From: an uncultured Gammaproteobacteria bacterium
GTDB lineage: Bacteria > Patescibacteriota > Microgenomatia > UBA12405
Reading direction: 5' to 3'
Length of the DNA stretch: 64,000 nucleotides
Assembly (NCBI GenBank): GCA_964537905.1
Contig: CAZICU010000001.1
Location: forward strand, 15,046-79,045
The notes under the pieces: model-generated
Databases searched by the model: none
Told to the model about the DNA's origin: nothing
What the model saw: only the letters and a program-made list of their open reading frames with translations
Made by a program: the position numbers and the translations under genes
Part shown: positions 20,603-43,668 of the stretch, one piece after another
How the letters are laid out: each line of letters starts with the position of its first letter
Numbering within the stretch: the first letter of the stretch is position 1

Positions 20603-20606
20603 CAAA

Positions 20607-20942: not shown

Positions 20943-20946
20943 CAAA

Positions 20947-21369: not shown

Positions 21370-21452
21370 GGAGGGGTGCTCCGAATGGTAAGGAACTTGT
21401 TTTGAAAACAAGCGTCAGCAATGACATGCAGGTTCAACTCCTGTCCCCTCCG
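21370..21452 (+). tRNA. tRNA-Ser (anticodon UGA), class II with long variable arm
   Basis: Acceptor GGAGGGG/CCCCTCC, 3-bp D-stem, anticodon stem CTTGT/ACAAG with loop TTTGAAA, long variable arm, T-arm GCAGG-TTCAACT-CCTGT, discriminator G. Confidence 0.7.
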
Positions 21453-24992: not shown

Positions 24993-25096
24993 AAAAGGAG
25001 GAAGTCTTTAATTTAAATATTTATTGTTTTAACGACTGCTCCCTTTTTTAAGGGGAGCTGTCGAACAAAGTGAGACTGAGGGGTTTAAAATACATT

Positions 25097-26107: not shown

Positions 26108-26125
26108 TTATAATTAAAATATAAT

Positions 26126-26281
26126 ATGAGTAAACCCGCATCCAAATCAAAACCAGACAATCGGTCTACTATTATTAAAGGTTTTGTTAAACCAACAGTC
26201 CCCGATTTCCCTGGAAACAAATCTCCCGTCAATTTTAAACCAAACGCCAGAATGGGAACCATCAATCGCGGTCGTCGTTAA
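26126..26281 (+). CDS. Small basic hypothetical protein (51 aa), ends ...ARMGTINRGRR
   Basis: Short ORF found by eye; weak resemblance to the C-terminus of bL34 only. Confidence 0.2.
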   Translation: MSKPASKSKPDNRSTIIKGFVKPTVPDFPGNKSPVNFKPNARMGTINRGRR

Positions 26282-26616
26282 GCTTTAATTCTTTTTTGAA
26301 TTAGCTTATCAATCCAATATAATTTTTGAACCCCATTTTCTAATTTAAAGTAGTGGAAAATATACGGCACTAATAATATTAATATTAATCCGTCTATTAA
26401 CAACAAAATTGCTTGTGGATAAATTAAAACAAACATCGTTACTACTACAAAATTAATCGCAAAAGCTAAGGTCACCAAGAGATGAATCAATCTTTCGTGT
26501 TGTAAAAATTTTATTGTTTCCCGATGATGAACTAGAATAATTTTCCACCCTTTAGTTTCCTTATTCTTTAATTTTTCGTTAATTTCACTCAAATAACGAT
26601 TTAAAAAATCAACCAT
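26278..26616 (-). CDS. Hypothetical membrane protein (112 aa, 2 TM)
   Basis: ORF with two hydrophobic helices. Confidence 0.35.
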   Translation of the reverse strand: MVDFLNRYLSEINEKLKNKETKGWKIILVHHRETIKFLQHERLIHLLVTLAFAINFVVVTMFVLIYPQAILLLIDGLILILLVPYIFHYFKLENGVQKLYWIDKLIQKRIKA

Positions 26617-26641
26617 ATTTAAATTTTACACTTTTTTGCTT

Positions 26642-27130
26642 CTATTGTTTTTTATATTCCTGAACTTCATCATGGACAAATTCCAATTTAACTCCTACTT
26701 TTTTAAACATTTCTTCAGTCTCTGCTCCAGCATGATATTTTCTTTCACAAACCACTCTTACAATTCCACAATTAATCAACAACATGGCACAAGTTCGACA
26801 AGGAGTCATTCGACAATAAACTGTGGCTCCATCAATTGCTACCCCCAATTTAGCCGCCTGACAAATGGCATTTTGTTCCGCATGAACTGTCCTCACACAA
26901 TGTTCAGAAATAGTGCCATCATCATTCAAAGCTTTTTTAATTTGATGACCCACTTCATCACAATGTGGTAAACCCTTTGGTGAGCCAACGTAACCAGTCA
27001 CTAAAATTTGTTTATTCTTAACAATCACACAACCACTTTTACCTCGATCACAAGTCGCTCTTTTAGAAATCGCTTCCATCACTTCCATAAAATACTCATC
27101 CCAACTTGGTCTTTTATTTAATTTGGTCAT
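26642..27130 (-). CDS. dCMP deaminase (ComEB/CMP-dCMP deaminase zinc-binding)
   Basis: HAEQNAI ... PCRTC zinc-binding motifs. ~160 aa. Confidence 0.8.
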   Translation of the reverse strand: MTKLNKRPSWDEYFMEVMEAISKRATCDRGKSGCVIVKNKQILVTGYVGSPKGLPHCDEVGHQIKKALNDDGTISEHCVRTVHAEQNAICQAAKLGVAIDGATVYCRMTPCRTCAMLLINCGIVRVVCERKYHAGAETEEMFKKVGVKLEFVHDEVQEYKKQ

Positions 27131-27695
27131 AAATTTCCTCGATTTGTTGATTTAAAAAATTAATATCTTTATGATTTACTATTGTAAAATCCGCCATAGC
27201 AATTGGACCACCTTTATGTGAATTTTCTATTTCAGCATAATCTCTTGTCTTGGCTTCTTCTTTAGTAAGAGACCTATTTCTTAAATTTTTATCATCAACC
27301 CCCGACACTCGTATTGAAATTCTTTCATATCTTAATTCTGGCGGCGCCCAAACCGCAATTACTTTCATTGCTTCACCAAAATGTTCCTTCAAAACCTTAT
27401 ATTCTTCCCAACTATACAATCCATCAGCCACTACATCTCCCTTTTTAATTAATTCATCAATTTTTGGTAAATTCAAAATTGCAAAAGCTGCCATTCCGTA
27501 TTCAGCTCTCAATCCTTCTCTCACTGTTCTTTCATTAACTTCGTTTACTTCCAAGCCTCTTTTTTTTACTTCATCCAAAGTTATCTGACCAAATCTTATA
27601 TACTGAAAACCATTTTTTACAAAAAAATCCGTAACTACACTCTTCCCTGCTCCGCACATTCCCGCAATACAAATAATTTTATTCATTTTAACCAA
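27114..27695 (-). CDS. P-loop nucleotide kinase (dephospho-CoA kinase / dNMP kinase-like)
   Basis: IICIAGMCGAGKSVV Walker A at the N-terminus. ~190 aa. Overlaps the dCMP deaminase start by 17 nt. Confidence 0.5.
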   Translation of the reverse strand: MVKMNKIICIAGMCGAGKSVVTDFFVKNGFQYIRFGQITLDEVKKRGLEVNEVNERTVREGLRAEYGMAAFAILNLPKIDELIKKGDVVADGLYSWEEYKVLKEHFGEAMKVIAVWAPPELRYERISIRVSGVDDKNLRNRSLTKEEAKTRDYAEIENSHKGGPIAMADFTIVNHKDINFLNQQIEEIYDQIK

Positions 27696-27745
27696 TTTAT
27701 CAAAAAAATAATTCTAAAACAATCTGTCAATTAATTAAAAAAAAT

Positions 27746-28075
27746 CTAACGCTTATTTTTATTAGATAGTTTTGTCAACAACGCCTCCGCCTCAATCGTT
27801 CCCATTTTATCTATTCCAAAATCTTCAAATATTTTTTCTGGTATTAACAATACTTCATTTTTATCCAAATCTTTATTACACAAACCTCTTTTTACAAATT
27901 CATCACCAATACCCTTAATCCCAAACTGTTCCAAGATCTTATCTTCAGGAGAATTACAAGTGTAATGAACCACACCTTTATCTGTTCTACAAGTTCCCTC
28001 AGGTCTGCCTTCACTATTAATTTTAAAAGTATTGCTGGTGGTGGGTTTAATTCTTAATTCGACTGTTTTTTCCAT
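27746..28075 (-). CDS. Hypothetical protein (109 aa)
   Basis: ORF only. Confidence 0.3.
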   Translation of the reverse strand: MEKTVELRIKPTTSNTFKINSEGRPEGTCRTDKGVVHYTCNSPEDKILEQFGIKGIGDEFVKRGLCNKDLDKNEVLLIPEKIFEDFGIDKMGTIEAEALLTKLSNKNKR

Positions 28076-28266
28076 AACTCATTATATTAATAATATATCC
28101 AAAAACCAACAATAAATATCTTTTGTGCTATTCAGCCAAAAATCATCCCGATTAATCATGATTATATAAGTGCAGGTCCTAGTTGAATATATCAGAACCT
28201 ATTTTAGAAATTAAGATTCACAGAATAAAACGAATACAAACAAACTTTCCTCATGATTATGTATAA

Positions 28267-29301
28267 TTGGCTATGAATGGCGAACCAAATGAGTCTCTTA
28301 TTGGTCAAGTGAATTTACCTCAAGAAAAACCAAAATTATTAATCACTATAGATAAAATTAACTTGACACCAAAATATGAAAGTTCAATTCCTCAAAATAT
28401 AACTACTGCCATCTTACAAAAAGAACAATTGCCAAATGAATTACCAATACTTGGTTCATCTATGATTGAAGATTTTATAATAAGTAAATTTAATCAAGGT
28501 ATTTCTAATCCCAACCAAATTGCTGAAAAATTTACTACCGAAAATATAATGGATAGTGTAAAAAAATATATTGAACAAGTAAAACTATATTCAGAAAAAC
28601 TAAATTGGGAAGAAATATTTTCTACTGATGATATGGAAGCGGTTAGAAAAAGTGTATGCCAAGAAATGAAAAATCTCGGGATGACAGATCAACAGATTAT
28701 GAAAATTCAATCATTAAATATAAATATTACAGAAAATATAGGGGTTTCAACTGCCGCACCTCAAGGCATTGAAAGTGTAGATATTAGTCGTCTTCAAGTG
28801 GTCAGGAGAGCAATTGATTATACACAAGTGTTTGGTAATACAATACCTATTGAACAAGTTATAAAAACAATAATGGGTACTACCATAGGTCATGAACTTG
28901 GACATAAAGTAGATCAATCTGCAAATCACGCAACTAATCGTATTTCGTCAGATATTAATTGGAAAAAGAATAATGAAAATCATGAAAATAGAAGTGAAAG
29001 ATTTGCTGAATATTGGGCTTTAGTTGCTGAAAATATTCCAACAGAAAAAATTAGACAACACGAATGGTTAATCCAAGTTAATAAAGTGGCTCAATTATGG
29101 GATGTAATTTATAAATACAATCAATCGCATGAAGATAAAGCAGATTTGATGGATATTTTTAGAAAAATTGATGGAAAAATTAATGATAGTGACGTTGCCG
29201 CTTTATTTGGTGCTAGAAAACAATTATATAATAATAATGAAGTTGAAAATTATGCATCACCTTATACAAGAGATATTGTGGCTATGTCAGTAAAACAATA
29301 A
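28267..29301 (+). CDS. Hypothetical protein with HExxH (TIGHELGHKVD) metallopeptidase-like motif
   Basis: ORF; single HExxH. Confidence 0.4.
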   Translation: MAMNGEPNESLIGQVNLPQEKPKLLITIDKINLTPKYESSIPQNITTAILQKEQLPNELPILGSSMIEDFIISKFNQGISNPNQIAEKFTTENIMDSVKKYIEQVKLYSEKLNWEEIFSTDDMEAVRKSVCQEMKNLGMTDQQIMKIQSLNINITENIGVSTAAPQGIESVDISRLQVVRRAIDYTQVFGNTIPIEQVIKTIMGTTIGHELGHKVDQSANHATNRISSDINWKKNNENHENRSERFAEYWALVAENIPTEKIRQHEWLIQVNKVAQLWDVIYKYNQSHEDKADLMDIFRKIDGKINDSDVAALFGARKQLYNNNEVENYASPYTRDIVAMSVKQ

Positions 29302-29334
29302 ATAAAATCGGTATTTACAAGCTTTTTTCTTATG

Positions 29335-29406
29335 CAGGCCCATGAGGATTCGAACCTCAAATGGAGATTTTGGAGATCCCAGTGATAACCATTTCACTAT
29401 GGGCCT
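29335..29406 (-). tRNA. tRNA-Trp (anticodon CCA)
   Basis: Reverse complement AGGCCCA-TA-GTGA-AATGGTTA-TCAC-T-GGGAT-CTCCAAA-ATCTC-CATT-TGAGG-TTCGAAT-CCTCA-TGGGCCT-G folds as a canonical cloverleaf. Confidence 0.8.
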
Positions 29407-29508
29407 AAGTCAGATTGTTAAAATGATACCACTTGCCTACCGGCAGGCAGGTTTCACCACAGACCAAAATATATTTTTAGAGTATCGAATTCTACCTTAA
29501 TTTAATCC

Positions 29509-30129
29509 CTATTTCAAAGTCAAAATCTTTTTTATTCCTTCCAAAATATCATTCGGGTTTTCAGCTATAAAATCAGTCTTATTTTTCTCTAATCTCTCTT
29601 TTTCATGCATTCCCCAAATAACTCCAATTGCTTTTATCTTTGTCTCATGAGCCTCTTTTACATCACCCACACTATCAGTCACCAACAAAGTTTCTTGTGG
29701 TTTAATTTTATATTTATCCAAAATAATTTTAATTTTTTCTACTTTACTTGGATTAAAATTCTTTCCCAAAATTTCTGTAAAATATTTATCTAAATTATGT
29801 TTCTCTAAGAAAATTTTTATCGAATTTTCATCCGCCCCAGACACAATTATCAGTTTATAACCTTGTAAATCCAATTCTTTAATCACCCTATCTATACCCT
29901 CAACTGGCACTAATTGAACAATTTCTTCTCGATATCTTTCAAAATAATGTTCAAAATAAGAATTATCAATATTGTCTCGCAATTTTTTATCATAAACATT
30001 TCCATCACACCAATCTTGCATTTCTCCATAAGTAATATCTGACATATGTTCTTTGGTAATTTCCCACGACAATTGACAGCTATTTACTATCACCCCATCA
30101 AAATCAAAAAGAATTATTTTATTATTCAT
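29509..30129 (-). CDS. HAD-superfamily hydrolase (true start MNNKIILFDFDGV; ORF-track extension overlaps tRNA-Ala)
   Basis: FDFDGVIV motif I, ...SGADE.. motif II region, K...VTDSVGDV motif III/IV. Confidence 0.7.
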   Translation of the reverse strand: MNNKIILFDFDGVIVNSCQLSWEITKEHMSDITYGEMQDWCDGNVYDKKLRDNIDNSYFEHYFERYREEIVQLVPVEGIDRVIKELDLQGYKLIIVSGADENSIKIFLEKHNLDKYFTEILGKNFNPSKVEKIKIILDKYKIKPQETLLVTDSVGDVKEAHETKIKAIGVIWGMHEKERLEKNKTDFIAENPNDILEGIKKILTLK

Positions 30130-30131
30130 TG

Positions 30132-30204
30132 TGGACCCAAGGGGACTCGAACCCCTGACCTTCCCCATGCCATGGGGACGCGCTACCAACTACGCTATGG
30201 GCCC
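30132..30204 (-). tRNA. tRNA-Ala (anticodon GGC) with G3:U70 identity pair
   Basis: Reverse complement GGGCCCA-TA-GCGT-AGTTGGTA-GCGC-G-TCCCC-ATGGCAT-GGGGA-AGGTC-AGGGG-TTCGAGT-CCCCT-TGGGTCC-A. Confidence 0.8.
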
Positions 30205-30284
30205 AAAAGATTAGCAATTCTAGCAAATTTCTACCCCACATTCTACTGGTTTAATCATTAGCTATTGTGCTACCATAGCTTAAT

Positions 30285-31154
30285 ATGTCTATTCAAAAAG
30301 CTGTCATCACCGCCGCCGGTCGCGGCACTCGTTTTCTTCCCGTTGTCAAAATTTACCCCAAAGAACTTGTTCCTATTCTCGATAAACCTAATATTCAAAT
30401 TTTAGTCGAAGAAATTATCGGCGCCGGTATTAATAATATCTGTATTGTTCACCGTCCTGGTGAAAATTCTATCGAAAAATACTTTACTCCCGATCTTGAA
30501 TTAGAAAAATATCTTCAAGCCAACAATAAGATGGAATTTCTTCAAAGTCTTCAAAAAATCTGGGCTGAAGCCAAATTAGAATTTATCCCTCAAGATCCTA
30601 ATCTTCCTTACGGTAATGCCTCTCCAGCTTTAAGTGCCAAAGATTTTATCGGTACTGATGATTTTGCCTATGTTTTTGGCGATGATTTAATCGTTGAAAA
30701 CACTCCTGGGCAATATTTAGCCAAAATGATCACTACTTTTGAACAAAACCATGCCGATGTTGTCGTCTCAACTCAAGAAATGCCCACAGAAGAGATGAAG
30801 CGCTACGGTGCCGTCGTTCCCCACACTAATCCTTCGATTCCCAATCAAATCAGTGCCCTTTTAGAAAAACAAGATCCCCCACCATCCAATTTTGCCGTTC
30901 TTGGTCGATACGTCGTTTCCAATAAAATTATGACTGTTCTTCAAACCCAAGGTATTTCTAAAGACAACGAACTCTGGTGGGCTGATGCCGCCAACAGTTT
31001 AGCTAAAAGTGGAATCGCTATTAACGAACCTATAACCAACGGCATTTGGATGACCACTGGCGATCCTATTCGCTGGCTCAAAGCCAATATCGTCTTTGCC
31101 CTTAACGACCCTAAATACAAAGATGATCTTACCCAATTCATCAAAACTTTGTAA
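30285..31154 (+). CDS. galU: UTP--glucose-1-phosphate uridylyltransferase
   Basis: KAVITAAGRGTRFLPVVKIYPKELVPILDKPNIQ N-terminal nucleotide-binding motif. 289 aa. Confidence 0.8.
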   Translation: MSIQKAVITAAGRGTRFLPVVKIYPKELVPILDKPNIQILVEEIIGAGINNICIVHRPGENSIEKYFTPDLELEKYLQANNKMEFLQSLQKIWAEAKLEFIPQDPNLPYGNASPALSAKDFIGTDDFAYVFGDDLIVENTPGQYLAKMITTFEQNHADVVVSTQEMPTEEMKRYGAVVPHTNPSIPNQISALLEKQDPPPSNFAVLGRYVVSNKIMTVLQTQGISKDNELWWADAANSLAKSGIAINEPITNGIWMTTGDPIRWLKANIVFALNDPKYKDDLTQFIKTL

Positions 31155-31407
31155 TCAGTAATTTTAGATTATTGATCTAATATTCACATTCTTATCGAAT
31201 AGTATTTAATTTGGTTTTAAAATAATTTTTGTATCCTATAACTTGACTTTTCTGATATTAAATGATACATTTCTCATATAATAATCATCTAGATTATTAG
31301 CAGGCGTCCAGTGAAAGCAGGCATTTGCGCTTACTTCCCCTCTTCGCCGTTCTTTAAAAATTCGTGATTTATTTGAAAAAGTTTGTAAAACAAAAATTTT
31401 CCTTCTT

Positions 31408-31467
31408 ATAATATATGCCATCTTGGGCTTAAATCTTAAATCTTAAACCTAGAATGGCATATATTAT
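31408..31467. repeat. Perfect 14-bp inverted repeat (ataatatatgccat / atggcatatattat) flanking tandem aaatctta units
   Basis: Read directly; forms a long hairpin in the intergenic region upstream of the 31590 gene. Confidence 0.4.
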
Positions 31468-31589
31468 AAATAAATATATAAGAAAGGAGGCTCAATTTTA
31501 ATTCCCTTTTTTCAGGAGGAATCTGAAAATCAGTTAAGTCCGGGTGTTACATAAGACGGTATAAACCGCCCACCCAGAAAGGAATAATC

Positions 31590-31799
31590 ATGGCAACAAA
31601 AGCAACCGCATTAGCCAAAATCGAAGAGGCAAAACAAGAGATCAATAATATCGAAGAAAAACCAATCGAAGAACAGGTTTTGGATTTAAATAATAAGATT
31701 GATTATCTTCAAAAACTTATCATTGCCGGAATCGTAATCGCATCAATCGGAATGATCGGCATATTCATTTTTCTCACAATAATCTACGTCATACTTTAA
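31590..31799 (+). CDS. Small coiled-coil protein with C-terminal TM anchor (69 aa)
   Basis: ORF; hydrophobic C-terminus. Confidence 0.35.
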   Translation: MATKATALAKIEEAKQEINNIEEKPIEEQVLDLNNKIDYLQKLIIAGIVIASIGMIGIFIFLTIIYVIL

Positions 31800-31817
31800 T
31801 TTAAGAAAGGAAAAAAC

Positions 31818-32381
31818 ATGAAAAAAAATTTTGTTGTCATCCTCATCCTTACAACAGCAATACTGTTGTTCAGTTGCGGTGTTAAAACCGAACGGACAAC
31901 CACCGAAACCGCCGCAACCACCGCAACCACCGAAACCGCCGCAACCGCAGCAATTAAGATCTCCGCACCTCCCCCCGAGATGATTGAACCCGCCGAACCA
32001 AAGTTAAATCTCAATGAACCACTTATTGGAACGTTAGACGACTTCGGGGTTTTGGTAACAAGAACAGTAAACTGTGCGGTCAGCGGCCAAGTCTTGGACC
32101 AGTCTTTAAACGAGGGCGAAATCATTGTTGGGAATTGCTTTGCAATTCACGACAACGGCTGGATCTCCCAAGAGGGTAATAATGTTTTCTATGTGATAGC
32201 CCCCAAGGGAGGGATCAGGGTTCGCGCAACTGTTTATGATGGAGTTTTCTTCATCATTGATGCTCATAAAATTACCCTGAACCAATCCATCGCCGCCATG
32301 ACATTGGTATTAAAGGAAGGATTCAACGCAACTAATATCCAATATCACCAACTCAAGGATTACGGCGATCCCGTTAAATAG
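31818..32381 (+). CDS. Lipoprotein with Thr/Ala/Glu repeat linker
   Basis: Signal peptide with lipobox LLFSC, TETAATTA repeats, locally GC-rich. Confidence 0.5.
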   Translation: MKKNFVVILILTTAILLFSCGVKTERTTTETAATTATTETAATAAIKISAPPPEMIEPAEPKLNLNEPLIGTLDDFGVLVTRTVNCAVSGQVLDQSLNEGEIIVGNCFAIHDNGWISQEGNNVFYVIAPKGGIRVRATVYDGVFFIIDAHKITLNQSIAAMTLVLKEGFNATNIQYHQLKDYGDPVK

Positions 32382-32501
32382 CAAATTTTCATCAAATAAC
32401 ATCACGGATAGGTGAAATAGAATGAAATCGAGTGATTGAATTATATTTTGACTTTATTGTCATCTTATAACCAAACCATTCTTTCTCATTGCTATTTCAC
32501 T

Positions 32502-32556
32502 CCCGTCTCCCGCCGTTGCGGGACTGATGAGCCCCGCTTACTGCTGGGCGAAACGG
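32502..32556 (+). ncRNA. Candidate type III hammerhead ribozyme in the 5' leader of the GT2/YfhO operon
   Basis: cccG-U-C(cleavage)-[UCCCGC-cguu-GCGGGA stem I]-CUGAUGA-[GCCCCGC-uuacu-GCUGGGC stem II]-GAAA-CGG. All invariant core residues (C3 U4 G5 A6 G8 A9 G12 A13 A14, A15.1:U16.1, C17) present. Confidence 0.6.
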
Positions 32557-32568
32557 AAAACTAAAATT

Positions 32569-33441
32569 ATGAAAATTATTAAAAAACCATTAATTACTGT
32601 CTATATGCCAGTTTTTAATGCCGCCAAATTTCTTGATCAATCAATCCAAAGTATTCTTAATCAAACCTTTTCTGATTTTGAATTTATCATTATCGATGAC
32701 GCTTCTACCGATAATTCTTGGAAAATCATTAAATCTTATGCCAAAAAAGATTCTCGAATCATTGCTATTAAAAATCATATTAATTTAGGCGTTAGCTTAA
32801 CTTCTAATATTGCTATTTCCAAAGCCAAAGGTAAATTTTTAGCCCGTATGGACGCCGACGATATTTCTTTTACCGACAGATTAGAAAAACAAATTCAATT
32901 TTTAACCAAAAATAAGAAAGTTGTCGCTGTTGGTGGTCAATGTGTCGTTATTGATGAATTTAATAATGTTATTGGTGATAAAAACTTCCCTACTCAACCT
33001 AAAAAACTCAAAGAAATGATTTTCTGGGCTATCCCTATGCAACAACCATCTATAATGATTAATCTTGGTAAATTACCCAAAAATTTTGTTTGGTATACTC
33101 CAAATCAATCTTCTGCCGAAGAAGTTAATTTAATGTTTCGTTTTATGCTTTATGGTCAAATTTCTAATCTTGAATACAACTTACTTTTCTATCGTCATTT
33201 AAACGGCAGTCTATCTCACAAAAATCCTAAAGATACTTTCAAATTAACTCTTAAAAGTCGTTTGGACGCTATTAATTTAGGTTTTAAACCAAGTTTAAAA
33301 GCCGTTATTTTAAATCTAATGCAAATAATTATTATTGGATTAATTCCCAACAATTTAATTAATGAAATTTGGTACCATATTCGTGGTATCAAAAAGCCTA
33401 CCGGTCTTACTGTTGGTTCATTTGCTCAATCTCAGCTATAA
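32569..33441 (+). CDS. Family 2 glycosyltransferase (CsbB/polyprenol-phosphate sugar synthase-like); true start MKIIKKPLITVYMPVFN
   Basis: VYMPVFNAAKFL...FIIIDDASTDNS...MDADD GT2 motifs. Upstream ORF-track extension is translated ribozyme sequence. Confidence 0.75.
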   Translation: MKIIKKPLITVYMPVFNAAKFLDQSIQSILNQTFSDFEFIIIDDASTDNSWKIIKSYAKKDSRIIAIKNHINLGVSLTSNIAISKAKGKFLARMDADDISFTDRLEKQIQFLTKNKKVVAVGGQCVVIDEFNNVIGDKNFPTQPKKLKEMIFWAIPMQQPSIMINLGKLPKNFVWYTPNQSSAEEVNLMFRFMLYGQISNLEYNLLFYRHLNGSLSHKNPKDTFKLTLKSRLDAINLGFKPSLKAVILNLMQIIIIGLIPNNLINEIWYHIRGIKKPTGLTVGSFAQSQL

Positions 33442-33449
33442 TTTGACTA

Positions 33450-36044
33450 GTGAAACTCTTTTTTAAAAAAAATTTTTATCCATTAGCTTTAGGTCTAATT
33501 GTTTCTTTTCTTTGTTGGCGCAACTTTACCCCCAATACTTTTTTAACCGGATGGGACAATCTCATGCCCGAATTAAATATTTGGCTCAATCTTAAACGCT
33601 CATTCTTTGCAGTTTGGCAAAACTATCAAGGTCTCGGTTTAGTTGGCGGTATGGCTCATAGCACTGATTTAATTCGTCAACTCATTATTCTGCCTTTCAC
33701 TTTTATCCTTCCTCTTAATCTTGTTCGATACCTTTGGCATTTTGCCATGATTTTTTTAGGTACTTTTGGCGTCTATTTTGGTCTTTCAAAAATCATCAAA
33801 TTAAAACCATCTTCTTCATTCATTGCCGCTCTTTTTTACCTTCTCAGTTTTGGTTCAGTTCAAAATTTTTGGGTTCCGCTAGAAACATTTTCCTGTTTTT
33901 GGGGATTTTTTCCTTGGCTTATTTTTTCTCTTTTAGATTATCTAAAAAATCCTACAACTTCTAAGCTTAGTAAACTTTTAATTTTTAATTTACTCGCTAT
34001 CCCTAGTTTTTATGTCCAAACTGTTTTTATTGTTTATCTTTTAGTCTTATTTATTATTTTTATAATTTATCCCAAATCTTTTTTTACCCTTATCAAAATT
34101 GGACTGATTAATTCTTTTTGGCTTCTCCCACTTATCTATTTTCTTACCACTAATTTAAATGGACCAGCTAATGGATTTGGTAATCTTATGTCTAATGATG
34201 AAACTTTTTTAAGAAATTTTTATCGAGGCGGTATTTTAGATTTCCTTTTACTTCGAGGCTATTACTACGATTTTCCAAAAAATTACGGTTTTTTAATGAA
34301 TATTTGGCGTCAATTCTTTTCTTCCCCTATCCCAATCATCACTGGTATTCTTCTTGGTCTTTCAGCCATTAGTGGTTTTATTATTACTTCTATTAAGAAA
34401 AATAAGACTATTTTTGATAAATTTTTAATCGGTTTATTTTTACTTTCCGCTATTGCCTTACTTTCTCAAATTCCTCCATTTGCTCAAATTAACTATCTTC
34501 TTCGACAAATTCCTTTGATTAATCAAATATTTCGCTCCCCTTTTACCAAATTTATTACTCCAGCCGTTTTTGTTTTCTCTTGTTTAATTGCTAATTTAAT
34601 TGAAAAAATTTCTCTTAAATTTCAAAAATATATCTCCCTTTTAGCTTTTATTTCTATAATAATTTTTTCTTTTCCTAGTTTTAACGGTCATTATATTTCC
34701 CCTGACATGAGAAAAAATATTCCCCAAGAATATTTTGATCTAATCAATTTTTTTAAAATTCAAAATCCAAATGGACGTATTGCTAATTTACCTCAAGGCT
34801 CTTTTTGGGGTTGGACTAATTATCGTTTTGGTATTAGTGGTTCCGGATTTCTTTGGTATGGCATCGAACAACCAATTTTAGATCGAGCCTTTGATGTTTG
34901 GAACCTCAAAAACGAACAATATTATTGGGAGCTCAACACTGCTCTTCAAAAAGATAATTATTTAGAATTAAATAAAATTTTTGAAAAATATGCCATTCAA
35001 TACGTTATTTTTGATAATAATGTCTTTTTCCCTGATGAAAAAATTTACAACAACATCGCCATTACCACCAAAGAAAAATTAGATAATTTATCTTCACTTC
35101 AAAAAATTGCTGAATTTGGTCAAATCACTGTCTACCAGACTCCCTTTATTACTCAAAAATATTTTGTTAATAATCCAGTTTCTATCAATAAATTTAATTT
35201 TTATTATTCCGACCCAGCTTTCTCTAAATTTAATAACTATATCAATAGTCATCAAATTAACTATCACTTCCCTTTTGTTAATTTATTTACTAATCGTCTT
35301 CTTTCTGAGCAAGAATTTTCAGTTTCTAAAAATGAAAGTTCAATTATAATAAATTTTCAAAATCAAAACCTTAGTTTTAATCTCGATAATTCAGCTAATG
35401 CTGAATACAATATTGGTCTTCCAAATGAAAAAACATCTTTAACTGTTTACAATTTTCCCCAAGCAAAACTTAATCAAAATTATTTAGTTGAAGTTAATTA
35501 TAAATTTATTTCTGGGCTTCCCAGTCAAATTAGTGTTGTTTCCACTAATTATCGTCACAAATATTTTGATACCAAACTCAAAAAATCTACCACCGATACC
35601 ACTTCTTGGTTTATCATTCCAGCTCACGAAACTGAAGATTTCCAACCAGGAATTGATATTATTTTTAATAATTCTTATCTTTCAGAAATTCCCAGCCAAA
35701 ACCAAATAAATTTTGTTAAAATTTATCCTTTTGATTTAAATTCCTTAATAAACCAATATCAATTTCTTTCCCCACCTCAACCATCAACTTACATTTTTTA
35801 TCCTCAATCTTATTCTTCTGGTTGGCTCGCTTTCTACTTCGATGGCCTAAAACCAATTTTTCTCAAAAATCATGTTCTTGCCAACAACTGGGCCAATGCT
35901 TGGCTTGTCGGCCAAGACTACGAAGTTGTCGGCGGAGAATTACCAAAAATATATGTTCTCTTCTGGCCTCAAATTTTTCAATATATTGGTCTAATCATCA
36001 CCGCCACCACTCTGATTTTGGTTTTAAAAAAATCTAAAAAATAA
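33450..36044 (+). CDS. YfhO-family polytopic membrane glycosyltransferase (GT-C-like), 864 aa
   Basis: ~13 N-terminal TM helices, large extracytoplasmic domain, C-terminal TM. Size and pairing with a CsbB-like GT2 matches the B. subtilis csbB-yfhO arrangement. Confidence 0.55.
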   Translation: MKLFFKKNFYPLALGLIVSFLCWRNFTPNTFLTGWDNLMPELNIWLNLKRSFFAVWQNYQGLGLVGGMAHSTDLIRQLIILPFTFILPLNLVRYLWHFAMIFLGTFGVYFGLSKIIKLKPSSSFIAALFYLLSFGSVQNFWVPLETFSCFWGFFPWLIFSLLDYLKNPTTSKLSKLLIFNLLAIPSFYVQTVFIVYLLVLFIIFIIYPKSFFTLIKIGLINSFWLLPLIYFLTTNLNGPANGFGNLMSNDETFLRNFYRGGILDFLLLRGYYYDFPKNYGFLMNIWRQFFSSPIPIITGILLGLSAISGFIITSIKKNKTIFDKFLIGLFLLSAIALLSQIPPFAQINYLLRQIPLINQIFRSPFTKFITPAVFVFSCLIANLIEKISLKFQKYISLLAFISIIIFSFPSFNGHYISPDMRKNIPQEYFDLINFFKIQNPNGRIANLPQGSFWGWTNYRFGISGSGFLWYGIEQPILDRAFDVWNLKNEQYYWELNTALQKDNYLELNKIFEKYAIQYVIFDNNVFFPDEKIYNNIAITTKEKLDNLSSLQKIAEFGQITVYQTPFITQKYFVNNPVSINKFNFYYSDPAFSKFNNYINSHQINYHFPFVNLFTNRLLSEQEFSVSKNESSIIINFQNQNLSFNLDNSANAEYNIGLPNEKTSLTVYNFPQAKLNQNYLVEVNYKFISGLPSQISVVSTNYRHKYFDTKLKKSTTDTTSWFIIPAHETEDFQPGIDIIFNNSYLSEIPSQNQINFVKIYPFDLNSLINQYQFLSPPQPSTYIFYPQSYSSGWLAFYFDGLKPIFLKNHVLANNWANAWLVGQDYEVVGGELPKIYVLFWPQIFQYIGLIITATTLILVLKKSKK

Positions 36045-36050
36045 TAAATA

Positions 36051-36133
36051 CGTCATTGCGATCCGCCAACTGGCGGAGAAGCAATCTCCACTCCACGTCA
36101 TTGCGATCCGCCAACTGGCGGAGAAGCAATCTC
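36051..36133. repeat. 38-nt direct repeat x2 (cgtcattgcgatccgccaactggcggagaagcaatctc), each containing the palindrome tccgccaactggcgga
   Basis: Exact duplicate at 36051-36088 and 36096-36133. Confidence 0.8.
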
Positions 36134-36185
36134 ATTGAAATTGCCACATCGCTATTGTAACTGCTCCCCGCCATGACATAATTTA

Positions 36186-36219
36186 TTTGTAGAGTGCAGG
36201 CATGCCTGCACTCTACAAA
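36186..36219. terminator. Perfect 17-bp-arm palindrome tttgtagagtgcaggca/tgcctgcactctacaaa, likely bidirectional terminator between convergent yfhO-like and glyA
   Basis: Read directly; flanked by T/A runs. Confidence 0.5.
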
Positions 36220-36239
36220 TTGCTACTTATTACTAACTA

Positions 36240-37394
36240 CTAGCTATTTACTATCTTCACTATTCTCTCCCCTAATTCTTCAAATTCTTTTTCTTTCCAC
36301 CCCTTAGTCGTCATAGCTGGCGTTCCAATTCGAATTCCTGATGGTTTTAACGGGCTTCCTTGCTCATGTGGAATAGTATTAGCATTACACACAATCCCAT
36401 TGTCTTCTAATTTTATTGCCATTTCCTTACCTTTTTCTTTACCCATATCTACCACCATCAAATGATTTTCTGTACCAAACACTCTCAATCCATTTTTCTT
36501 TAAAGTTTCTGCCAATATTTGAGCATTTTTAACTACTTGTTTGGCATAATCTTTAAACTCTTGAGTATCTGCCTCGGCAAAAGCCACCGCTAAAGCCGCA
36601 ATATTATTTTCATGAGGCCCACCTTGCATCCCCGGAAACACTGCCTTGTCAATTTTTTCCGCCAATTTAAGGTCTTTTTCCAAGCCTTTTTTAGTTACTC
36701 CTATAAATGCTCCTCGTGGTCCTCGTAAACTTTTATGAGTCGTACTCATAATTAAATGAACATAAGGTACTGGACTGGGGTGAACTCCACCCACAATTAA
36801 GCCAATAATATGTGACACATCAGCTACCAACCAAGATCCCACTTTATCAGCAATTTCTCCAAATCTTTTAAAATCCAAAATCCACGGGTAAGCCGTTGTT
36901 CCCGCCATAATCATTTTAGGTTTTTCTGCCAGTACCAATTCTTCTAATTTGTCATAATCAATTCGCCCATCTTCTTCTACATTATACTGGACACTTTCAA
37001 AATATTTTCCCGAAAAAGTAATCTTTGGATGACCATGAGTCAAATGACCTCCAGCCGATAATTTAAGTCCACAAATTTTATCCCCTCTTTCCAGAAGCGC
37101 CATTTGAATGGCACTATTGGCTGGACTGCCAGAATATGGTTGGACATTTAAATGTTCTACTCCCAACAATTTTTTACCCCTATCAATGGCTAAATTTTCT
37201 ACTTCATCAATAAATTTATTTCCTTGATAATAGCGTCGACCTGAATAACCTTCGGCATATTTATTAGTCAAACAACTTCCCAAAGCCATTTTAACTTCTT
37301 CTGAAGCAAAATTTTCTGATGGAATCAAAGACACTACTGAATCTTGCCTTTCTTGTTCTTTTTGAATTAAATCTCTAATTTGTTTATCGATCAT
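36240..37394 (-). CDS. glyA: Serine hydroxymethyltransferase
   Basis: SENFASEEV, GGHLTHGHP, PLP-Lys region STTHKSLRGPRG. Confidence 0.9.
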   Translation of the reverse strand: MIDKQIRDLIQKEQERQDSVVSLIPSENFASEEVKMALGSCLTNKYAEGYSGRRYYQGNKFIDEVENLAIDRGKKLLGVEHLNVQPYSGSPANSAIQMALLERGDKICGLKLSAGGHLTHGHPKITFSGKYFESVQYNVEEDGRIDYDKLEELVLAEKPKMIMAGTTAYPWILDFKRFGEIADKVGSWLVADVSHIIGLIVGGVHPSPVPYVHLIMSTTHKSLRGPRGAFIGVTKKGLEKDLKLAEKIDKAVFPGMQGGPHENNIAALAVAFAEADTQEFKDYAKQVVKNAQILAETLKKNGLRVFGTENHLMVVDMGKEKGKEMAIKLEDNGIVCNANTIPHEQGSPLKPSGIRIGTPAMTTKGWKEKEFEELGERIVKIVNS

Positions 37395-37460
37395 AAAACT
37401 CCTTTTTTAAAAAACTAACTCAAAACCAGCAATCTAAACTCTCTATATCATGAATTCATT

Positions 37461-38150
37461 TTACAACAAATTTCTTCTCTTTAATTCATTCCAAATAATC
37501 TGATTAATTTCTTCCATTGGAAGTAATTTATTATCTCGACAACAATCAATAATCACCCATCTTTCAGGTTCTTTATCTACCATTTTTTTATATTCCTTAG
37601 CTGTTTCCATTTGATGATTAAAATTTGCTTCAGCCTGATCCATTACTTCTTTTCCTGTATAATTTCTTTTGGCTTTTTTTAAAACATTTTCTCGACAAAT
37701 TTCTGGCTCTACTGACATTACTAATATCAAATCTGGTTTAATAATTCCCATTTGATTATAACCAGCTTCCCAAAGCCAATTAGCATATTCTTCTCTTTGG
37801 TTTTCTGGTTTTTTAGCAATTTGATGAACATTTGAAGTAAAATATCTGTTCGATACTACCATTTTTCCTTTTTTCAACGCTGGTCCAATTATTCTTTTAC
37901 TTCCATCAGTTTCATCCAACATATACGGCAAAACAGCTAAATAAGGGCTAATGGTAAATAACTCTCCAAACTCTCCAGTCAATAATCGACCCGCCTGTTT
38001 TCCCCAAAAACTTGTTTCATAGTGAGGATAATCATCAGTTACCACGTCAATTCCCTCTTTTTTTAATCTTTCTACCAGTAATTCTGTTTGTGTTCCTTTT
38101 CCAGAACCATCAATCCCCTCAAGAACAATAAATTTTCCTTTAGTTTTCAT
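37461..38150 (-). CDS. tmk: Thymidylate kinase
   Basis: FIVLEGIDGSGKGTQ P-loop, DRY-like SNRYFTS region. Confidence 0.85.
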   Translation of the reverse strand: MKTKGKFIVLEGIDGSGKGTQTELLVERLKKEGIDVVTDDYPHYETSFWGKQAGRLLTGEFGELFTISPYLAVLPYMLDETDGSKRIIGPALKKGKMVVSNRYFTSNVHQIAKKPENQREEYANWLWEAGYNQMGIIKPDLILVMSVEPEICRENVLKKAKRNYTGKEVMDQAEANFNHQMETAKEYKKMVDKEPERWVIIDCCRDNKLLPMEEINQIIWNELKRRNLL

Positions 38151-38859
38151 CTTTTAATTTGGCTCCTTTAATATTTTTCCAAATACCACAAGACATTTTT
38201 CCTTGGTCGCAAATTTTTTCCGATACACATGGTGGACCGGCATTTTCAAAAATAATTGGCGCCACTTCTTTAACCAAATCCAACATTTGTTTAGCCACTT
38301 CTCTTATTTCCCACTGAGCTCTAGTGCATGATCTGACACTAAAGAAATGCAATAATTCTCGAGCATTCATTGTCATTACTATTTTTACTTGTACTGATTG
38401 TGGTTGACAAAATCTGGCATCTTCAGCCGGAATTCCGGCATCAATCAATTCATTGTAAAGTTCTTGGGAATTTTCTAAATGTTTCAAATATTTTTCCAAC
38501 AACTTTTTATTTTCCAAGTTTCTAATTTTTGGTGGCACCCTGTAAGCCGCATCTCCTCGTTTGACATATCTTCCCGATTGAATCGAAAACGAAGCAATTC
38601 TGTGACGAATCAAATGAATTTCTGTCACTCGGCTTACTCCGTCGATGGCAAAAGTAAAACTAGCATGTTCCAATGTTGACGTATGTCCCGAACTAATTAC
38701 CTGTTTTATTAATCTTCGTTTAACTTCTTCTGTTGTTTTTTCCTTTAGTTCTTTAGCTCCCACCGAAGCATAACATTGTCTAATCGCCGCCACTACATTC
38801 TGCTCTGGATCAGAGGTATAACCTATTAACTCTACTTTAAGTTTATCTTCTTTTGCCAT
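38140..38859 (-). CDS. thyX: Flavin-dependent thymidylate synthase ThyX
   Basis: ThyX signature RHRIASFSIQSGRY (RHRxxSxxxxSxR). Confidence 0.85.
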   Translation of the reverse strand: MAKEDKLKVELIGYTSDPEQNVVAAIRQCYASVGAKELKEKTTEEVKRRLIKQVISSGHTSTLEHASFTFAIDGVSRVTEIHLIRHRIASFSIQSGRYVKRGDAAYRVPPKIRNLENKKLLEKYLKHLENSQELYNELIDAGIPAEDARFCQPQSVQVKIVMTMNARELLHFFSVRSCTRAQWEIREVAKQMLDLVKEVAPIIFENAGPPCVSEKICDQGKMSCGIWKNIKGAKLKDEN

Positions 38860-38943
38860 TAACCATTTTTTCCAAATTTTTAACTCTGAACCAATTTAAT
38901 CTAAAAACCAATTTTATTCAATTCACTAAAACTAGGTCAAGTA

Positions 38944-39888: not shown

Positions 39889-39904
39889 ATTTTTACTCTC
39901 CAAA

Positions 39905-40075
39905 TTGCTTACAACTTGGTCCTCGACTTTAGTCGGGATGCTCGAAAGTTTTGGTCATCCGGCTTCGACCGACGAAGCTTTGCGAAGGCGGTTTTTACAC
40001 CCCCATCTTTGCTCCGACAATCACACGGTTGCGGCACAGCTCAGGATTCTAACCTGATTCCCCATCACCCGCCAT
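39905..40075 (-). promoter_or_regulatory. Candidate cobalamin (B12) riboswitch, compact variant, with expression platform hairpins
   Basis: Minus-strand RNA AUGGGGAAUCAGGUUAGAAUCCUGAGCUGUGCCGCAACCGUGUGA matches the cobalamin core (GGGAA..GGUG.AAUCC...C.G..CCCGC.ACUGU.A). A canonical B12 box is not obvious. P1 GGCGG/CCGCC. Downstream alternative pairings CUUCG/CGAAG. Confidence 0.5.
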
Positions 40076-40114
40076 AGTTTTAACGACAGCGGGCATTAAT
40101 AATTTATTTTATCA

Positions 40115-40612: not shown

Positions 40613-40673
40613 AATTTTATATATAATTTTAATTTTATTAGATTTTTAATATTTTAATTTAAAAATTAAAAAT

Positions 40674-43624: not shown

Positions 43625-43668
43625 ATATTTTCGTCTAAGTTTTCAGCTTATTTTAAATTTTTAATAAA

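What the first reader, a model, noticed from the sequence alone, without database searches (positions are those of the whole stretch)
32502..32556. Near-canonical type III hammerhead ribozyme in the 5' leader of a csbB/yfhO-like glycosylation operon
The sequence cccGUC / UCCCGC-cguu-GCGGGA / CUGAUGA / GCCCCGC-uuacu-GCUGGGC / GAAA / CGG carries every invariant hammerhead core nucleotide in the right order: GUC cleavage triplet, CUGAUGA, GAAA, and the A15.1:U16.1 and G10.1:C11.1 pairs. Stem I is a perfect 6-bp hairpin, stem II is 7 bp with one C.U mismatch, and the open stem III is short (4 bp). It lies 12 nt upstream of the start codon of the GT2 gene (32569), which is followed by a YfhO-family GT-C gene. 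Self-cleavage would remove the 5' end of this mRNA. Bacterial hammerheads are known but are usually in phage-like or intergenic contexts. A ribozyme in the leader of a surface-glycosylation operon would be a notable regulatory or processing arrangement.
Basis: seen in the sequence. Interest (0 to 1): 0.7.

Follow-up and report, generated by a model that had tools for sequence, protein, structure and literature searches.

The report
Hammerhead ribozyme between two genes
The motif is a genuine, conserved type III hammerhead self-cleaving RNA in a Shapirobacteria-like (CPR) genome, but it is one of over 100 "long hairpin + hammerhead" units that follow many different genes, so it looks like a cut-mark between two messages rather than a switch for the glycosyltransferase gene.

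Summary
Window 32503-32556 (+) has every hammerhead core nucleotide, three helices in type III topology and a GUC cleavage site, and it ends 12 nt before the GT2 start codon.

Rfam Hammerhead_3 scores it 31.9 bits, below the 48.5-bit cut-off (E = 2.6e-5 on 251 nt). Comparative evidence settles it:
- 13 of 15 orthologous GT2 loci carry a hammerhead at the same spot with different stems.
- 15 of 16 base pairs show double compensatory changes.
- A model built without the window sequence finds it at 43 bits (E about 1e-11). The next best hit in 64 kb scores 12.8 bits.
- The 54 nt are identical in relatives whose GT2 coding DNA is 81% identical.

A GT2-independent metagenome scan gave 101 related hammerheads, and only 11 of 74 distinct ones precede GT2. 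The constant partner is an upstream same-strand gene ending about 80 nt away, followed by a long hairpin that abuts stem III. 23 are followed by a convergent gene. No promoter lies between the upstream lipoprotein-like gene and GT2.

My reading is an intercistronic, 3'-end self-cleaving punctuation mark that leaves hairpin-capped ends on both products. Cleavage itself is untested. The YfhO identity of the downstream gene is unverified. This is a new member of a known kind with a new, testable context.

The parts
31235..31271 (+). Conserved promoter-like motif CCTATAAC-TTGACT(31243-31248)-17 nt-TACATT(31266-31271). It is the probable start of the transcription unit that contains the hammerhead.
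   Evidence: The same motif TATCCTATAA(Y)CTTGACA-N17-TAYAAT occurs 42 times in the fetched loci (34 distinct copies). 28 of those 34 are followed by a hammerhead 0.45-2.5 kb downstream on the same strand. No such motif lies between the upstream gene and any hammerhead.
31818..32381 (+). Upstream gene: a 187-aa lipoprotein-like protein (N-terminus MKKNFVVILILTTAILLFSCG) with no family match.
   Evidence: The ORF was listed. It has no Pfam hit and only weak lipoprotein signal-peptide hits in NCBIfam. Proteins upstream of hammerheads are enriched for an N-terminal hydrophobic segment (42% vs 20%, p = 2e-4).
32411..32501 (+). Long imperfect hairpin. The outer helix is GGUGAAAUAGAAUGA / UCAUUGCUAUUUCACU. 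Its 3' arm ends 1 nt before stem III of the hammerhead.
   Evidence: Folding of 32405-32575 gives -53.1 kcal/mol, z = -5.5. An equivalent hairpin ends 0-5 nt before the hammerhead in 67 of 92 distinct relatives. The upstream 70 nt have mean z = -3.9 against -1.5 for the downstream 70 nt.
32503..32556 (+). Type III hammerhead ribozyme: stem III 32503-32506/32553-32556; stem I 32508-32513/32518-32523; core CUGAUGA 32524-32530; stem II 32531-32537/32543-32549; GAA 32550-32552.
   Evidence: It is identical (54/54) in L001 and L203, whose GT2 coding DNA is about 81% identical.
32507..32508 (+). Predicted self-cleavage site, between C17 (32507) and U1.1 (32508). The 5' product would end in a 2',3'-cyclic phosphate. 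The 3' product would start with a 5'-OH flush with the stem I hairpin.
   Evidence: This is inferred from hammerhead chemistry (established knowledge) and the GUC triplet. In relatives N17 is C, U or A and never G (0 of 76). Cleavage was not tested experimentally.
32557..32568 (+). A-rich 12-nt spacer AAAACUAAAAUU with no Shine-Dalgarno sequence.
   Evidence: In GT2 orthologues the gap between the hammerhead model end and the ATG is -1 to 14 nt.
32569..33441 (+). GT2 family glycosyltransferase gene (290 aa).
   Evidence: Pfam PF00535, E = 1.1e-33. Homologues are named Candidatus Shapirobacteria GT2 proteins. The longer ORF from the ATG at 32527 inside CUGAUGA is an artefact.
33450..36044 (+). 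864-aa polytopic membrane protein, co-oriented with GT2 and starting 9 nt after it. YfhO/GT-C identity is not verified.
   Evidence: The ORF was listed. At least 8 hydrophobic segments are predicted. It has no Pfam, NCBIfam or PDB match.

Best explanation
Window 32503-32556 is an evolutionarily maintained type III hammerhead self-cleaving ribozyme. It belongs to a large family of 'long hairpin + hammerhead' modules found in Shapirobacteria-like (Microgenomates/CPR) chromosomes and some of their phages.

Proposed mechanism:
1. Transcription starts at the conserved promoter near 31243. It runs through the long leader, the small ORF and the lipoprotein-like gene, then continues without a new promoter into GT2 and the 864-aa membrane-protein gene.
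2. Once the hammerhead is transcribed it cuts after C32507.
3. The upstream mRNA then ends in the stable hairpin 32411-32501 plus a 6-nt tail carrying a 2',3'-cyclic phosphate. This is a terminator-like 3' end that should resist exonucleases.
4. The GT2 mRNA begins with a 5'-OH flush against the stem I hairpin, followed by stem II and a short A-rich spacer before the AUG.

The element would therefore act as a self-cleaving punctuation mark. It uncouples the stability and expression of an abundant secreted-protein message from the enzyme genes behind it. Elsewhere in these genomes the same module simply ends a transcription unit.

What is shown: the motif, its conservation and covariation, the hairpin-hammerhead architecture, and the gene-context statistics. 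What is inferred: cleavage in vivo, co-transcription, and the stabilising effect of the hairpins.
For: The motif is real:
- The core and helices are present in the sequence, and Rfam RF00008 gives E = 2.6e-5.
- The independent model R2 scores 43.3 bits, E about 1e-11.
- 13 of 15 orthologous loci have a hammerhead at the same place with different stem sequences.
- 94.4% of cells are paired and 15 of 16 pairs show double changes, against 26-48% paired in slid controls. The same holds on 77 distinct sequences.
- C3, G5, A6, G8, A9, G12, A13 and A14 are invariant in the protein-selected set.
- N17 is never G, and loops L1 (UGNGUR) and L2 (RAAA) are conserved even though the search pattern left them free.
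- The hammerhead is 54/54 identical where the GT2 CDS is 81% and the intergenic region 71% identical.
- In L202 (GT2 97% identical) the hammerhead has been replaced by another variant next to a remnant of the old one, so a working hammerhead is kept at this site.

The punctuation / 3'-end role:
- The upstream gene is on the same strand in 94 of 109 cases and ends 40-170 nt before the hammerhead in 80 of 94 (median 81 nt).
- A strong hairpin ends 0-5 nt before the hammerhead in 67 of 92 cases.
- 23 of 104 hammerheads face a convergent gene.
- Only 11 of 74 pattern-selected hammerheads precede GT2.
- A conserved strong promoter lies 8-49 nt after some hammerheads and about 1.0-1.5 kb before most, and never between the upstream gene and the hammerhead.
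- In the orthologue L002, which lacks a hammerhead, the same long hairpin is followed by a run of 8 U, an ordinary intrinsic terminator.
- Same-strand arrays of 2-4 hammerheads flank single genes.

Precedent: hammerheads flanking genes were proposed to process polycistronic RNAs (PMC3088659). Ribozyme processing in bacterial 3' UTRs is discussed in PMC6765202.
Against: - There is no experimental or transcript-end evidence of cleavage.
- The window copy has loops (CGUU, UUACU) unlike the conserved L1/L2 of the main family, so fast cleavage at cellular Mg2+ is not assured.
- A few relatives carry core changes expected to impair activity: U15.1:A16.1 in L004b, L006 and L007, and CCGAUGA in L005.
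- The tight, conserved abutment to the GT2 start codon (-1 to 14 nt) suggests an extra, GT2-directed role that the punctuation model does not require.
- Co-transcription rests on motif searches. Generic promoter scans are at background level, and CPR promoters are uncharacterised.
- Gene contexts come from a crude ORF caller.
- The loci were fetched around hammerheads, which biases the promoter-to-hammerhead distances.
- Only one hammerhead occurs in the 64-kb window, so this is not a general 3'-end mechanism.
Confidence: 0.6

Rival explanations
1. A GT2-directed 5'-leader ribozyme. Uncleaved, stem III (stacked on the long hairpin) occludes the 0-15 nt before the AUG. Self-cleavage frees the short A-rich spacer and creates a hairpin-protected 5' end, switching on or tuning translation of GT2 and the membrane protein. 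This would resemble the glmS ribozyme or ribozyme-dependent translation in RNA viruses.
For: A hammerhead abuts the GT2 start codon in 13 of 15 orthologues, across 57-83% protein identity. The gap to the ATG is only -1 to 14 nt and lacks a Shine-Dalgarno sequence. GT2 is the single commonest downstream gene (25 of the distinct hammerheads). In L202 the hammerhead was replaced but kept in front of GT2. Self-cleavage enabling translation has been reported for RNA viruses (bioRxiv 10.1101/2024.05.16.594327).
Against: 85% of pattern-selected relatives are not in front of GT2. 22% face a convergent gene, and others are followed by a promoter or by more than 150 nt of spacer. Nothing suggests a ligand pocket. 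Two orthologues (L002, L009) do without the hammerhead. This role could also coexist with the punctuation role rather than replace it.
Confidence: 0.2
2. Ribozyme-assisted transcription termination. The hairpin pauses RNA polymerase, the hammerhead cuts the nascent RNA, and a 5'-to-3' exonuclease (RNase J type) chases and releases the polymerase. This would replace scarce intrinsic terminators.
For: The modules sit at unit ends facing convergent genes or just before the next promoter. L002 has a canonical terminator at the equivalent place. Terminator-like sites are no more frequent than chance in window 25-44 kb, 4 against 9.4 +/- 3.0 expected.
Against: In the window and 24 other distinct loci the downstream RNA must survive to express GT2. 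The 3' product starts with a hairpin flush with its 5' end, which should block a 5' exonuclease (inference). There is only one hammerhead in 64 kb.
Confidence: 0.1
3. A selfish or cassette-boundary element. The hairpin-hammerhead is carried with mobile or phage-derived 'promoter-leader-secreted gene' cassettes. It persists by duplication and recombination rather than through a host function. Its conserved 50 nt may serve as a recombination point.
For: L141 carries identical hammerheads, two of them sharing about 30 nt of identical flank. A viral contig has three hammerheads, and some neighbouring proteins have PHROG hits. The window and L202 differ by replacement of the whole upstream gene, with the junction at the hammerhead. 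Contigs break next to hammerheads, for example L153.
Against: The hairpins and the intervening genes are not repeated; only the hammerhead is. The position is orthologous across species, and both stem covariation and core conservation indicate selection on the folded, catalytic RNA. The window neighbourhood is housekeeping: NTP-transferase, SHMT, tRNAs and the L10 leader.
Confidence: 0.08
4. A chance hammerhead-like motif, or part of the GT2 coding sequence (the ORF from the ATG at 32527), with no RNA function.
For: The Rfam score is below the gathering threshold. An in-frame ATG inside CUGAUGA gives a 304-aa ORF.
Against: R2 gives E about 1e-11. Compensatory changes occur in all three helices. 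The N-terminal extension is not conserved, and in many orthologues the ORF cannot extend into the hammerhead. The element is 54/54 identical against 81% in the CDS.
Confidence: 0.02

Closest known systems
Hammerhead ribozyme type III (Rfam RF00008, clan CL00010)
   Same: The core is identical (CUGAUGA ... GAA; A15.1:U16.1; G10.1:C11.1; N17 = C). Helices I and II are capped and helix III is open. The element aligns end to end with the RF00008 model (positions 1-54 of 54). Two relatives reach the Rfam gathering score.
   Different: The window copy scores 31.9 bits against a 48.5-bit cut-off. It has a long, G+C-rich stem II with a C.U mismatch and unusual loops. It comes from a bacterial chromosome of a CPR lineage, not a viroid, satellite or eukaryotic repeat. 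It is always preceded by a long hairpin.
Clustered bacterial / prophage hammerheads flanking genes (Perreault et al. 2011, PMC3088659)
   Same: Same-strand hammerheads flank single genes or short gene blocks, and processing of polycistronic RNA into gene-length mRNAs was proposed for them. Relatives of the window element form arrays of 2-4, and some lie on phage-like DNA.
   Different: The window has a single copy in a housekeeping neighbourhood. It is vertically conserved in front of one orthologous gene. The upstream hairpin is obligatory, and the units start at a conserved promoter. The lineage (Shapirobacteria/Microgenomates) is not mentioned with hammerheads in the searchable literature.
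Engineered ribozyme insulators and 3'-UTR ribozymes (RiboJ-type hammerhead + hairpin; twister in bacterial 3' UTRs, Felletti et al., cited in PMC6765202 and PMC5502269)
   Same: A self-cleaving ribozyme next to a hairpin defines a clean mRNA end and decouples a gene from its transcript context. This is the behaviour I infer here.
   Different: Those are synthetic constructs. RiboJ is recalled from my own knowledge and was not checked here. The window element is natural, and its hairpin lies on the 5' side of the cut, protecting the upstream product.
glmS ribozyme (5'-UTR, metabolite-dependent)
   Same: It is a self-cleaving RNA just upstream of a cell-envelope-related gene, and cleavage yields a 5'-OH mRNA.
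   Different: glmS is confined to one gene's leader and needs GlcN6P. This family occurs after many unrelated genes, faces convergent genes, and is a plain hammerhead with no sign of a ligand site.
RNase-processed intercistronic hairpins that set segmental mRNA stability (e.g. E. coli papBA, Rhodobacter puf; own knowledge, not checked here)
   Same: A hairpin at the end of the upstream cistron plus an endonucleolytic cut gives different stabilities to the two halves of an operon transcript.
   Different: Here the cut would be made by the RNA itself rather than by RNase E or RNase III.

Membership tests
Hammerhead ribozyme, type III | Catalytic core C3-U4-G5-A6-N7-G8-A9 and G12-A13-A14 in the right order | tested here: met
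   CUGAUGA lies at 32524-32530 and GAA at 32550-32552. These positions are invariant in 16 protein-selected relatives.
Hammerhead ribozyme, type III | Three helices around the core, with I and II closed by loops and III open (type III topology) | tested here: met
   The sequence shows this directly. The Rfam alignment covers all model positions. The hammerhead fold lies within 0.7 kcal/mol of the MFE.
Hammerhead ribozyme, type III | Helices supported by compensatory substitutions in relatives | tested here: met
   15 of 16 pairs show changes on both sides, with 94% of cells paired against 26-48% in slid controls. 77 distinct sequences give the same result. Stem II was partly fixed by the search pattern in that second set.
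Hammerhead ribozyme, type III | Cleavage site N-U-H: U16.1 paired to A15.1, and N17 not G | tested here: met
   The window has GUC with the A15.1:U16.1 pair. In relatives N17 is C 43, U 22, A 11 and G 0. Exceptions with U15.1:A16.1 occur in L004b, L006 and L007.
Hammerhead ribozyme, type III | Rfam RF00008 curated gathering score (an operational threshold, not a biochemical feature) | tested here: not met
   The window scores 31.9 bits against 48.5, E = 2.6e-5 on 251 nt. Only 2 of about 25 relatives tested pass.
Hammerhead ribozyme, type III | Loop I - loop II tertiary contact that gives fast cleavage at physiological Mg2+ | tested here: inconclusive
   The main family has conserved L1 UGNGUR and L2 RAAA. 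The window variant has CGUU and UUACU with a longer stem II, and no clear complementary contact was found by eye.
Hammerhead ribozyme, type III | Site-specific Mg2+-dependent self-cleavage giving 2',3'-cyclic phosphate and 5'-OH ends | not testable with these tools
   This needs in vitro transcription and cleavage, or mapping of RNA ends.
Gene-specific 5'-leader regulatory ribozyme (glmS-like) | Confined to the leader of one gene family | tested here: not met
   Only 11 of 74 pattern-selected hammerheads precede GT2. 23 of 104 face a convergent gene.
Intrinsic (Rho-independent) terminator | G+C-rich hairpin immediately followed by a U tract | tested here: not met
   No terminator-like site was found in 31700-33000. 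The hairpin at 32411-32501 is followed by the hammerhead, not by U's. The orthologue L002, which lacks a hammerhead, does have hairpin + U8.
Prophage-associated clustered hammerheads (Perreault 2011) | Several hammerheads flanking genes, near integrase or phage genes | tested here: inconclusive
   Relatives form arrays (L141 x4, L107 x4, L081 x3), and some are phage-like. The window has one copy among housekeeping genes.
   GT2 is confirmed (PF00535). The 864-aa protein has at least 8 hydrophobic segments plus a C-terminal one but no Pfam, NCBIfam or PDB match.

The most novel reading that the evidence does not exclude
Shapirobacteria-like CPR bacteria and their phages use a dedicated 'long hairpin + type III hammerhead' module as a genome-encoded mRNA punctuation system. 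It makes the 3' ends of strongly promoted, mostly secreted-protein gene cassettes, and the 5' end of whatever cistron follows, here the GT2 / membrane-protein pair. This would be the first bacterial hammerhead family with a definable housekeeping role in chromosomal gene expression. A more extreme version is that gene-length RNAs excised between tandem hammerheads are circularised.
Probability: 0.4. Interest if true: 0.75.

Novelty: new member of a known kind. Interest (0 to 1): 0.55.

Why it matters
The biological role of genome-encoded bacterial hammerheads is still described as largely elusive (PMC6765202). This family has four features that make it a good place to ask the question:
- Its context is unusually regular: conserved promoter, leader, gene, long hairpin, hammerhead.
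- One site is vertically conserved, directly in front of a cell-envelope glycosyltransferase gene.
- Natural 'controls' exist: an orthologue with a plain terminator instead, an orthologue with a swapped hammerhead, and copies with core mutations.

The question 'what does a bacterial hammerhead do?' therefore becomes testable with reporters and RNA-end mapping. The work also shows that most of these ribozymes fall below Rfam's threshold and so go unannotated in CPR genomes.

Tried and rejected
- Rfam at gathering threshold found no hammerhead in the window. It appears only with the E-value threshold.
- Generic sigma-70 and terminator consensus scans were uninformative: 82 promoter-like hits against 78 expected. 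Only the family-specific promoter motif helped.
- My first descriptor script had an off-by-one error and returned nothing. It was fixed.
- The idea that the tandem hammerheads are multimers of a satellite or retrozyme-like unit was rejected. Only the hammerhead and up to about 30 nt of flank are repeated.
- The idea that the motif is the N-terminal coding extension of GT2 (ATG at 32527) was rejected.
- A small upstream ORF in the purine-rich tract of 'group B' loci is not conserved (read).
- A Shine-Dalgarno role for the stem II 3' strand (AAGGAC) fits only the loci where the ATG follows immediately, not the window.
- The look-up of encoding contigs could not locate P0001, so the source record was not identified.
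- Pfam, PHROGs and NCBIfam gave no function for most upstream proteins.
- Pfam, NCBIfam and PDB gave nothing for the 864-aa protein.
- The Felletti et al. paper could not be read.
- Literature searches for hammerheads in CPR, Patescibacteria, Microgenomates or Parcubacteria returned nothing relevant.

Full report
**1. The observation**

The window is about 32% G+C. Its GT2 homologues are named Candidatus Shapirobacteria / Patescibacteria.

At 32503-32556 (+) the sequence reads CCGU-C | UCCCGC-cguu-GCGGGA | CUGAUGA | GCCCCGC-uuacu-GCUGGGC | GAA | ACGG. All invariant hammerhead positions are present. Stem I has 6 perfect pairs. Stem II has 7 positions with one C.U mismatch and G10.1:C11.1. Stem III has 4 pairs including A15.1:U16.1. 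The cleavage triplet is GUC. Twelve nucleotides separate the element from the ATG at 32569.

Rfam's Hammerhead_3 aligns over its full length but scores 31.9 bits, below the 48.5-bit cut-off (E = 2.6e-5 for 251 nt). It is not reported at the gathering threshold. The hammerhead secondary structure is within 0.7 kcal/mol of the MFE.

**2. Comparative evidence that it is a real hammerhead**

A protein-guided search for GT2 orthologues in GTDB genomes gave 15 orthologous loci at 57-83% identity.

- In 13 of them a hammerhead lies directly upstream of the GT2 start, with different stem sequences. L002 and L009 lack it.
- On 16 such sequences, 94.4% of cells are paired and 15 of 16 pairs show changes on both sides. 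Slid controls give 26-48% paired, and 0 of 500 shuffles reach the observed values.
- C3, G5, A6, G8, A9, G12, A13 and A14 are invariant.
- Model R2, built from 24 relatives and excluding the window and its near-identical copies, finds the window element at 43.3 bits (E about 1e-11). The next hit in 64 kb scores 12.8 bits.
- L001 and L203 carry a 54/54 identical hammerhead. The GT2 coding DNA of L001 is 81% identical to the window's and the intergenic region 71%.
- L202 has a GT2 that is 97% identical at the protein level, but a different upstream gene and a main-family hammerhead. Just 5' of that hammerhead lies a remnant of the window-type 5' half (TCACCCTCCCGTCTCCACGTT). The ribozyme was exchanged but kept.

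**3. The element is not specific to the GT2 leader**

Extra copies already appeared 1.1-2.3 kb upstream in L004, L005 and L009.

I then ran a GT2-independent exact-pattern scan (TCGRNNCTGAYGAGTYCNNNNGRACGAA). The family model found 101 hammerheads in those loci, often 2-4 on one strand.

On 77 distinct sequences the helices again covary. N17 is C, U or A and never G. Loops the pattern left free are conserved: L2 is RAAA in 65 of 77, and L1 is UGNGUR. Only two relatives pass Rfam's threshold, so the family is largely invisible to standard annotation.

**4. Context statistics** (own ORF caller)

- The upstream gene is on the same strand in 94 of 109 cases. It ends 40-170 nt before the hammerhead in 80 of 94 (median 81 nt).
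- The downstream gene is on the same strand in 81 cases and convergent in 23. Where it is on the same strand, the distance ranges from overlapping to more than 800 nt.
- Only 11 of 74 distinct pattern-selected hammerheads are followed by a GT2 orthologue.
- Between the stop codon and the hammerhead there is almost always one long, strong hairpin whose 3' arm ends 0-5 nt before stem III (67 of 92).
- A second class has a purine-rich spacer of about 25 nt between hairpin and hammerhead.
- The upstream 70 nt have mean z = -3.9, against -1.5 for the downstream 70 nt (Wilcoxon p = 6e-12).
- In the window the hairpin is 32411-32501.
- Upstream proteins are mostly without family assignment. They are enriched for an N-terminal signal- or anchor-like segment (42% vs 20%, p = 2e-4). 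The window's upstream protein is lipoprotein-like.

**5. Transcription units**

A strikingly conserved promoter-like motif, TATCCTATAA(Y)CTTGACA-N17-TAYAAT, occurs 42 times in the fetched DNA, including window 31235-31271.

- 28 of 34 distinct copies are followed by a hammerhead 0.45-2.5 kb downstream, mostly 1.0-1.5 kb.
- It lies 8-49 nt after some hammerheads (L004b, L005b, L110, L113).
- No strong promoter match lies within the 150 nt before any hammerhead.

In the window, GT2 and the 864-aa gene therefore appear to be co-transcribed with the lipoprotein-like gene, with the hammerhead sitting between the cistrons. In L002, which lacks the hammerhead, the equivalent long hairpin is followed by U8, an ordinary intrinsic terminator.

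**6. Mechanism proposed**

Self-cleavage after C32507 would have two consequences:
- The upstream message would end in the long hairpin plus a 6-nt tail with a 2',3'-cyclic phosphate.
- The GT2 message would start with a 5'-OH flush with the stem I hairpin, followed by a short A-rich, Shine-Dalgarno-less spacer.

Both ends are of the kind known to slow exonucleolytic decay. That step is inference from general knowledge of bacterial mRNA decay.

The module would thus act as self-cleaving punctuation. It would uncouple the fate of an abundant secreted-protein message from the enzyme genes behind it. Elsewhere it would simply end a unit in front of a convergent gene or the next promoter.

This agrees with, and sharpens, the proposal that clustered bacterial hammerheads process polycistronic RNAs (PMC3088659; reviewed in PMC6765202, which calls bacterial ribozyme roles largely elusive).

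**7. Rival explanations**

- **GT2-directed leader role** (cleavage-activated translation). This is favoured by the conserved -1 to 14 nt abutment to the start codon and by the retention of a hammerhead in L202. It cannot explain 85% of the family. It may coexist with the punctuation role.
- **Torpedo-type termination.** This fits copies that face convergent genes. It does not fit the GT2 sites or the hairpin-flush 5' end.
- **Selfish or cassette-boundary element.** This is suggested by identical copies in L141, by phage-borne copies and by the L202 exchange. Only the hammerhead is repeated, however, and selection clearly acts on the fold and the core.
- **Chance or coding origin.** This is excluded by the comparative data.

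**8. What is unverified**

- Cleavage itself has not been tested.
- The window variant's loops (CGUU / UUACU) differ from the family's conserved loops.
- Co-transcription is inferred.
- The downstream 864-aa protein has no YfhO or GT-C match, although it is a polytopic membrane protein.
- No paper linking hammerheads to CPR lineages was found.

**9. Verdict**

- The ribozyme is a new member of a known class.
- Its regular hairpin-hammerhead context in CPR genomes is new and gives a testable handle on an open question.
- Interest: 0.55.

Noticed in passing
window 31235-31271; also 41 other places in fetched loci (e.g. L004 1739, L005 387, L012 1182): A highly conserved promoter-like motif TATCCTATAA(Y)CTTGACA-N17-TAYAAT, often with TG before the -10 element. 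It stands in front of the gene units that end in a hammerhead, and 8-49 nt after some hammerheads.
   Followed up: partly
window 31272-31589 (hairpin 31407-31469); L003 1800-2100; L004 1775-2120; L005, L007, L008, L110, L113, L012: Long (240-600 nt) conserved, apparently structured 5' leaders lie between that promoter and the secreted-protein genes, in at least two sequence types. The window and L003 share blocks and a long hairpin with compensatory changes. Rfam has no match. This may be an undescribed leader RNA.
   Followed up: no
L202 1400-1500 versus window 32495-32560: In a genome whose GT2 is 97% identical, the upstream gene and the hammerhead variant are different. A remnant of the window-type hammerhead 5' half (TCACCCTCCCGTCTCCACGTT) sits just before the new hammerhead. 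This points to replacement by recombination at the ribozyme.
   Followed up: partly
L002 2890-2990: This GT2 orthologue has no hammerhead. The same kind of long hairpin is followed by AGC-U8, a canonical intrinsic terminator, at the equivalent position.
   Followed up: partly
L010, L011, L013, L014, L015, L098, L142, L144 (about 25 nt before the hammerhead): A conserved purine-rich tract GGAAAGAAAGAAGAAAGAGAU lies between hairpin and hammerhead in loci where the GT2 ATG follows the hammerhead by only 0-5 nt. Its role is unexplained. It could be a Shine-Dalgarno sequence brought next to the AUG by the folded ribozyme, or a protein-binding site.
   Followed up: partly
L004 1660-1712, L006 956-1008, L007 1871-1923, L005 1431-1483: Natural core variants. 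U15.1:A16.1 replaces A:U in three loci, giving an AAC triplet. CCGAUGA (U4 to C) occurs in one. Both changes are expected to weaken a canonical hammerhead, yet they sit in otherwise well-conserved copies.
   Followed up: no
L141 3810-6549; L107 459-3835 (-); L081 1663-3312: Same-strand arrays of 3-4 hammerheads spaced 0.3-1.3 kb apart. In L141 three copies are identical, and two of them share about 30 nt of upstream flank. L081 is an IMG/VR viral contig. L141, L107 and L086 each have a similar gene (N-terminus MFEKYLxxIGLSxKEAxVY) about 1-2.5 kb upstream of the array.
   Followed up: partly
window 25000-44000: Intrinsic-terminator-like sites are fewer than chance expectation (4 against 9.4 +/- 3.0), and the four found lie inside ORFs. 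Canonical terminators seem scarce in this stretch.
   Followed up: no
window 20412-21452, 29335-30204, 57716-57863: Rfam finds five tRNA genes and a ribosomal protein L10 leader, consistent with a chromosomal housekeeping neighbourhood.
   Followed up: no
L001, L005-L007, L012-L014 (record titles): Several contigs with clear Shapirobacteria-like GT2 loci are titled 'uncultured Gammaproteobacteria' or 'Candidatus Methanoperedens'. These are probably mislabelled or mis-binned MAG records.
   Followed up: no
L153 75-127 and 3290-3342 (contig length 3349); L108, L110: Some metagenome contigs end within a few nucleotides of a hammerhead, and L153 does so at both ends. This is what assembly breaks at a repeated sequence would produce, and it hints at several near-identical copies per genome.
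   Followed up: no
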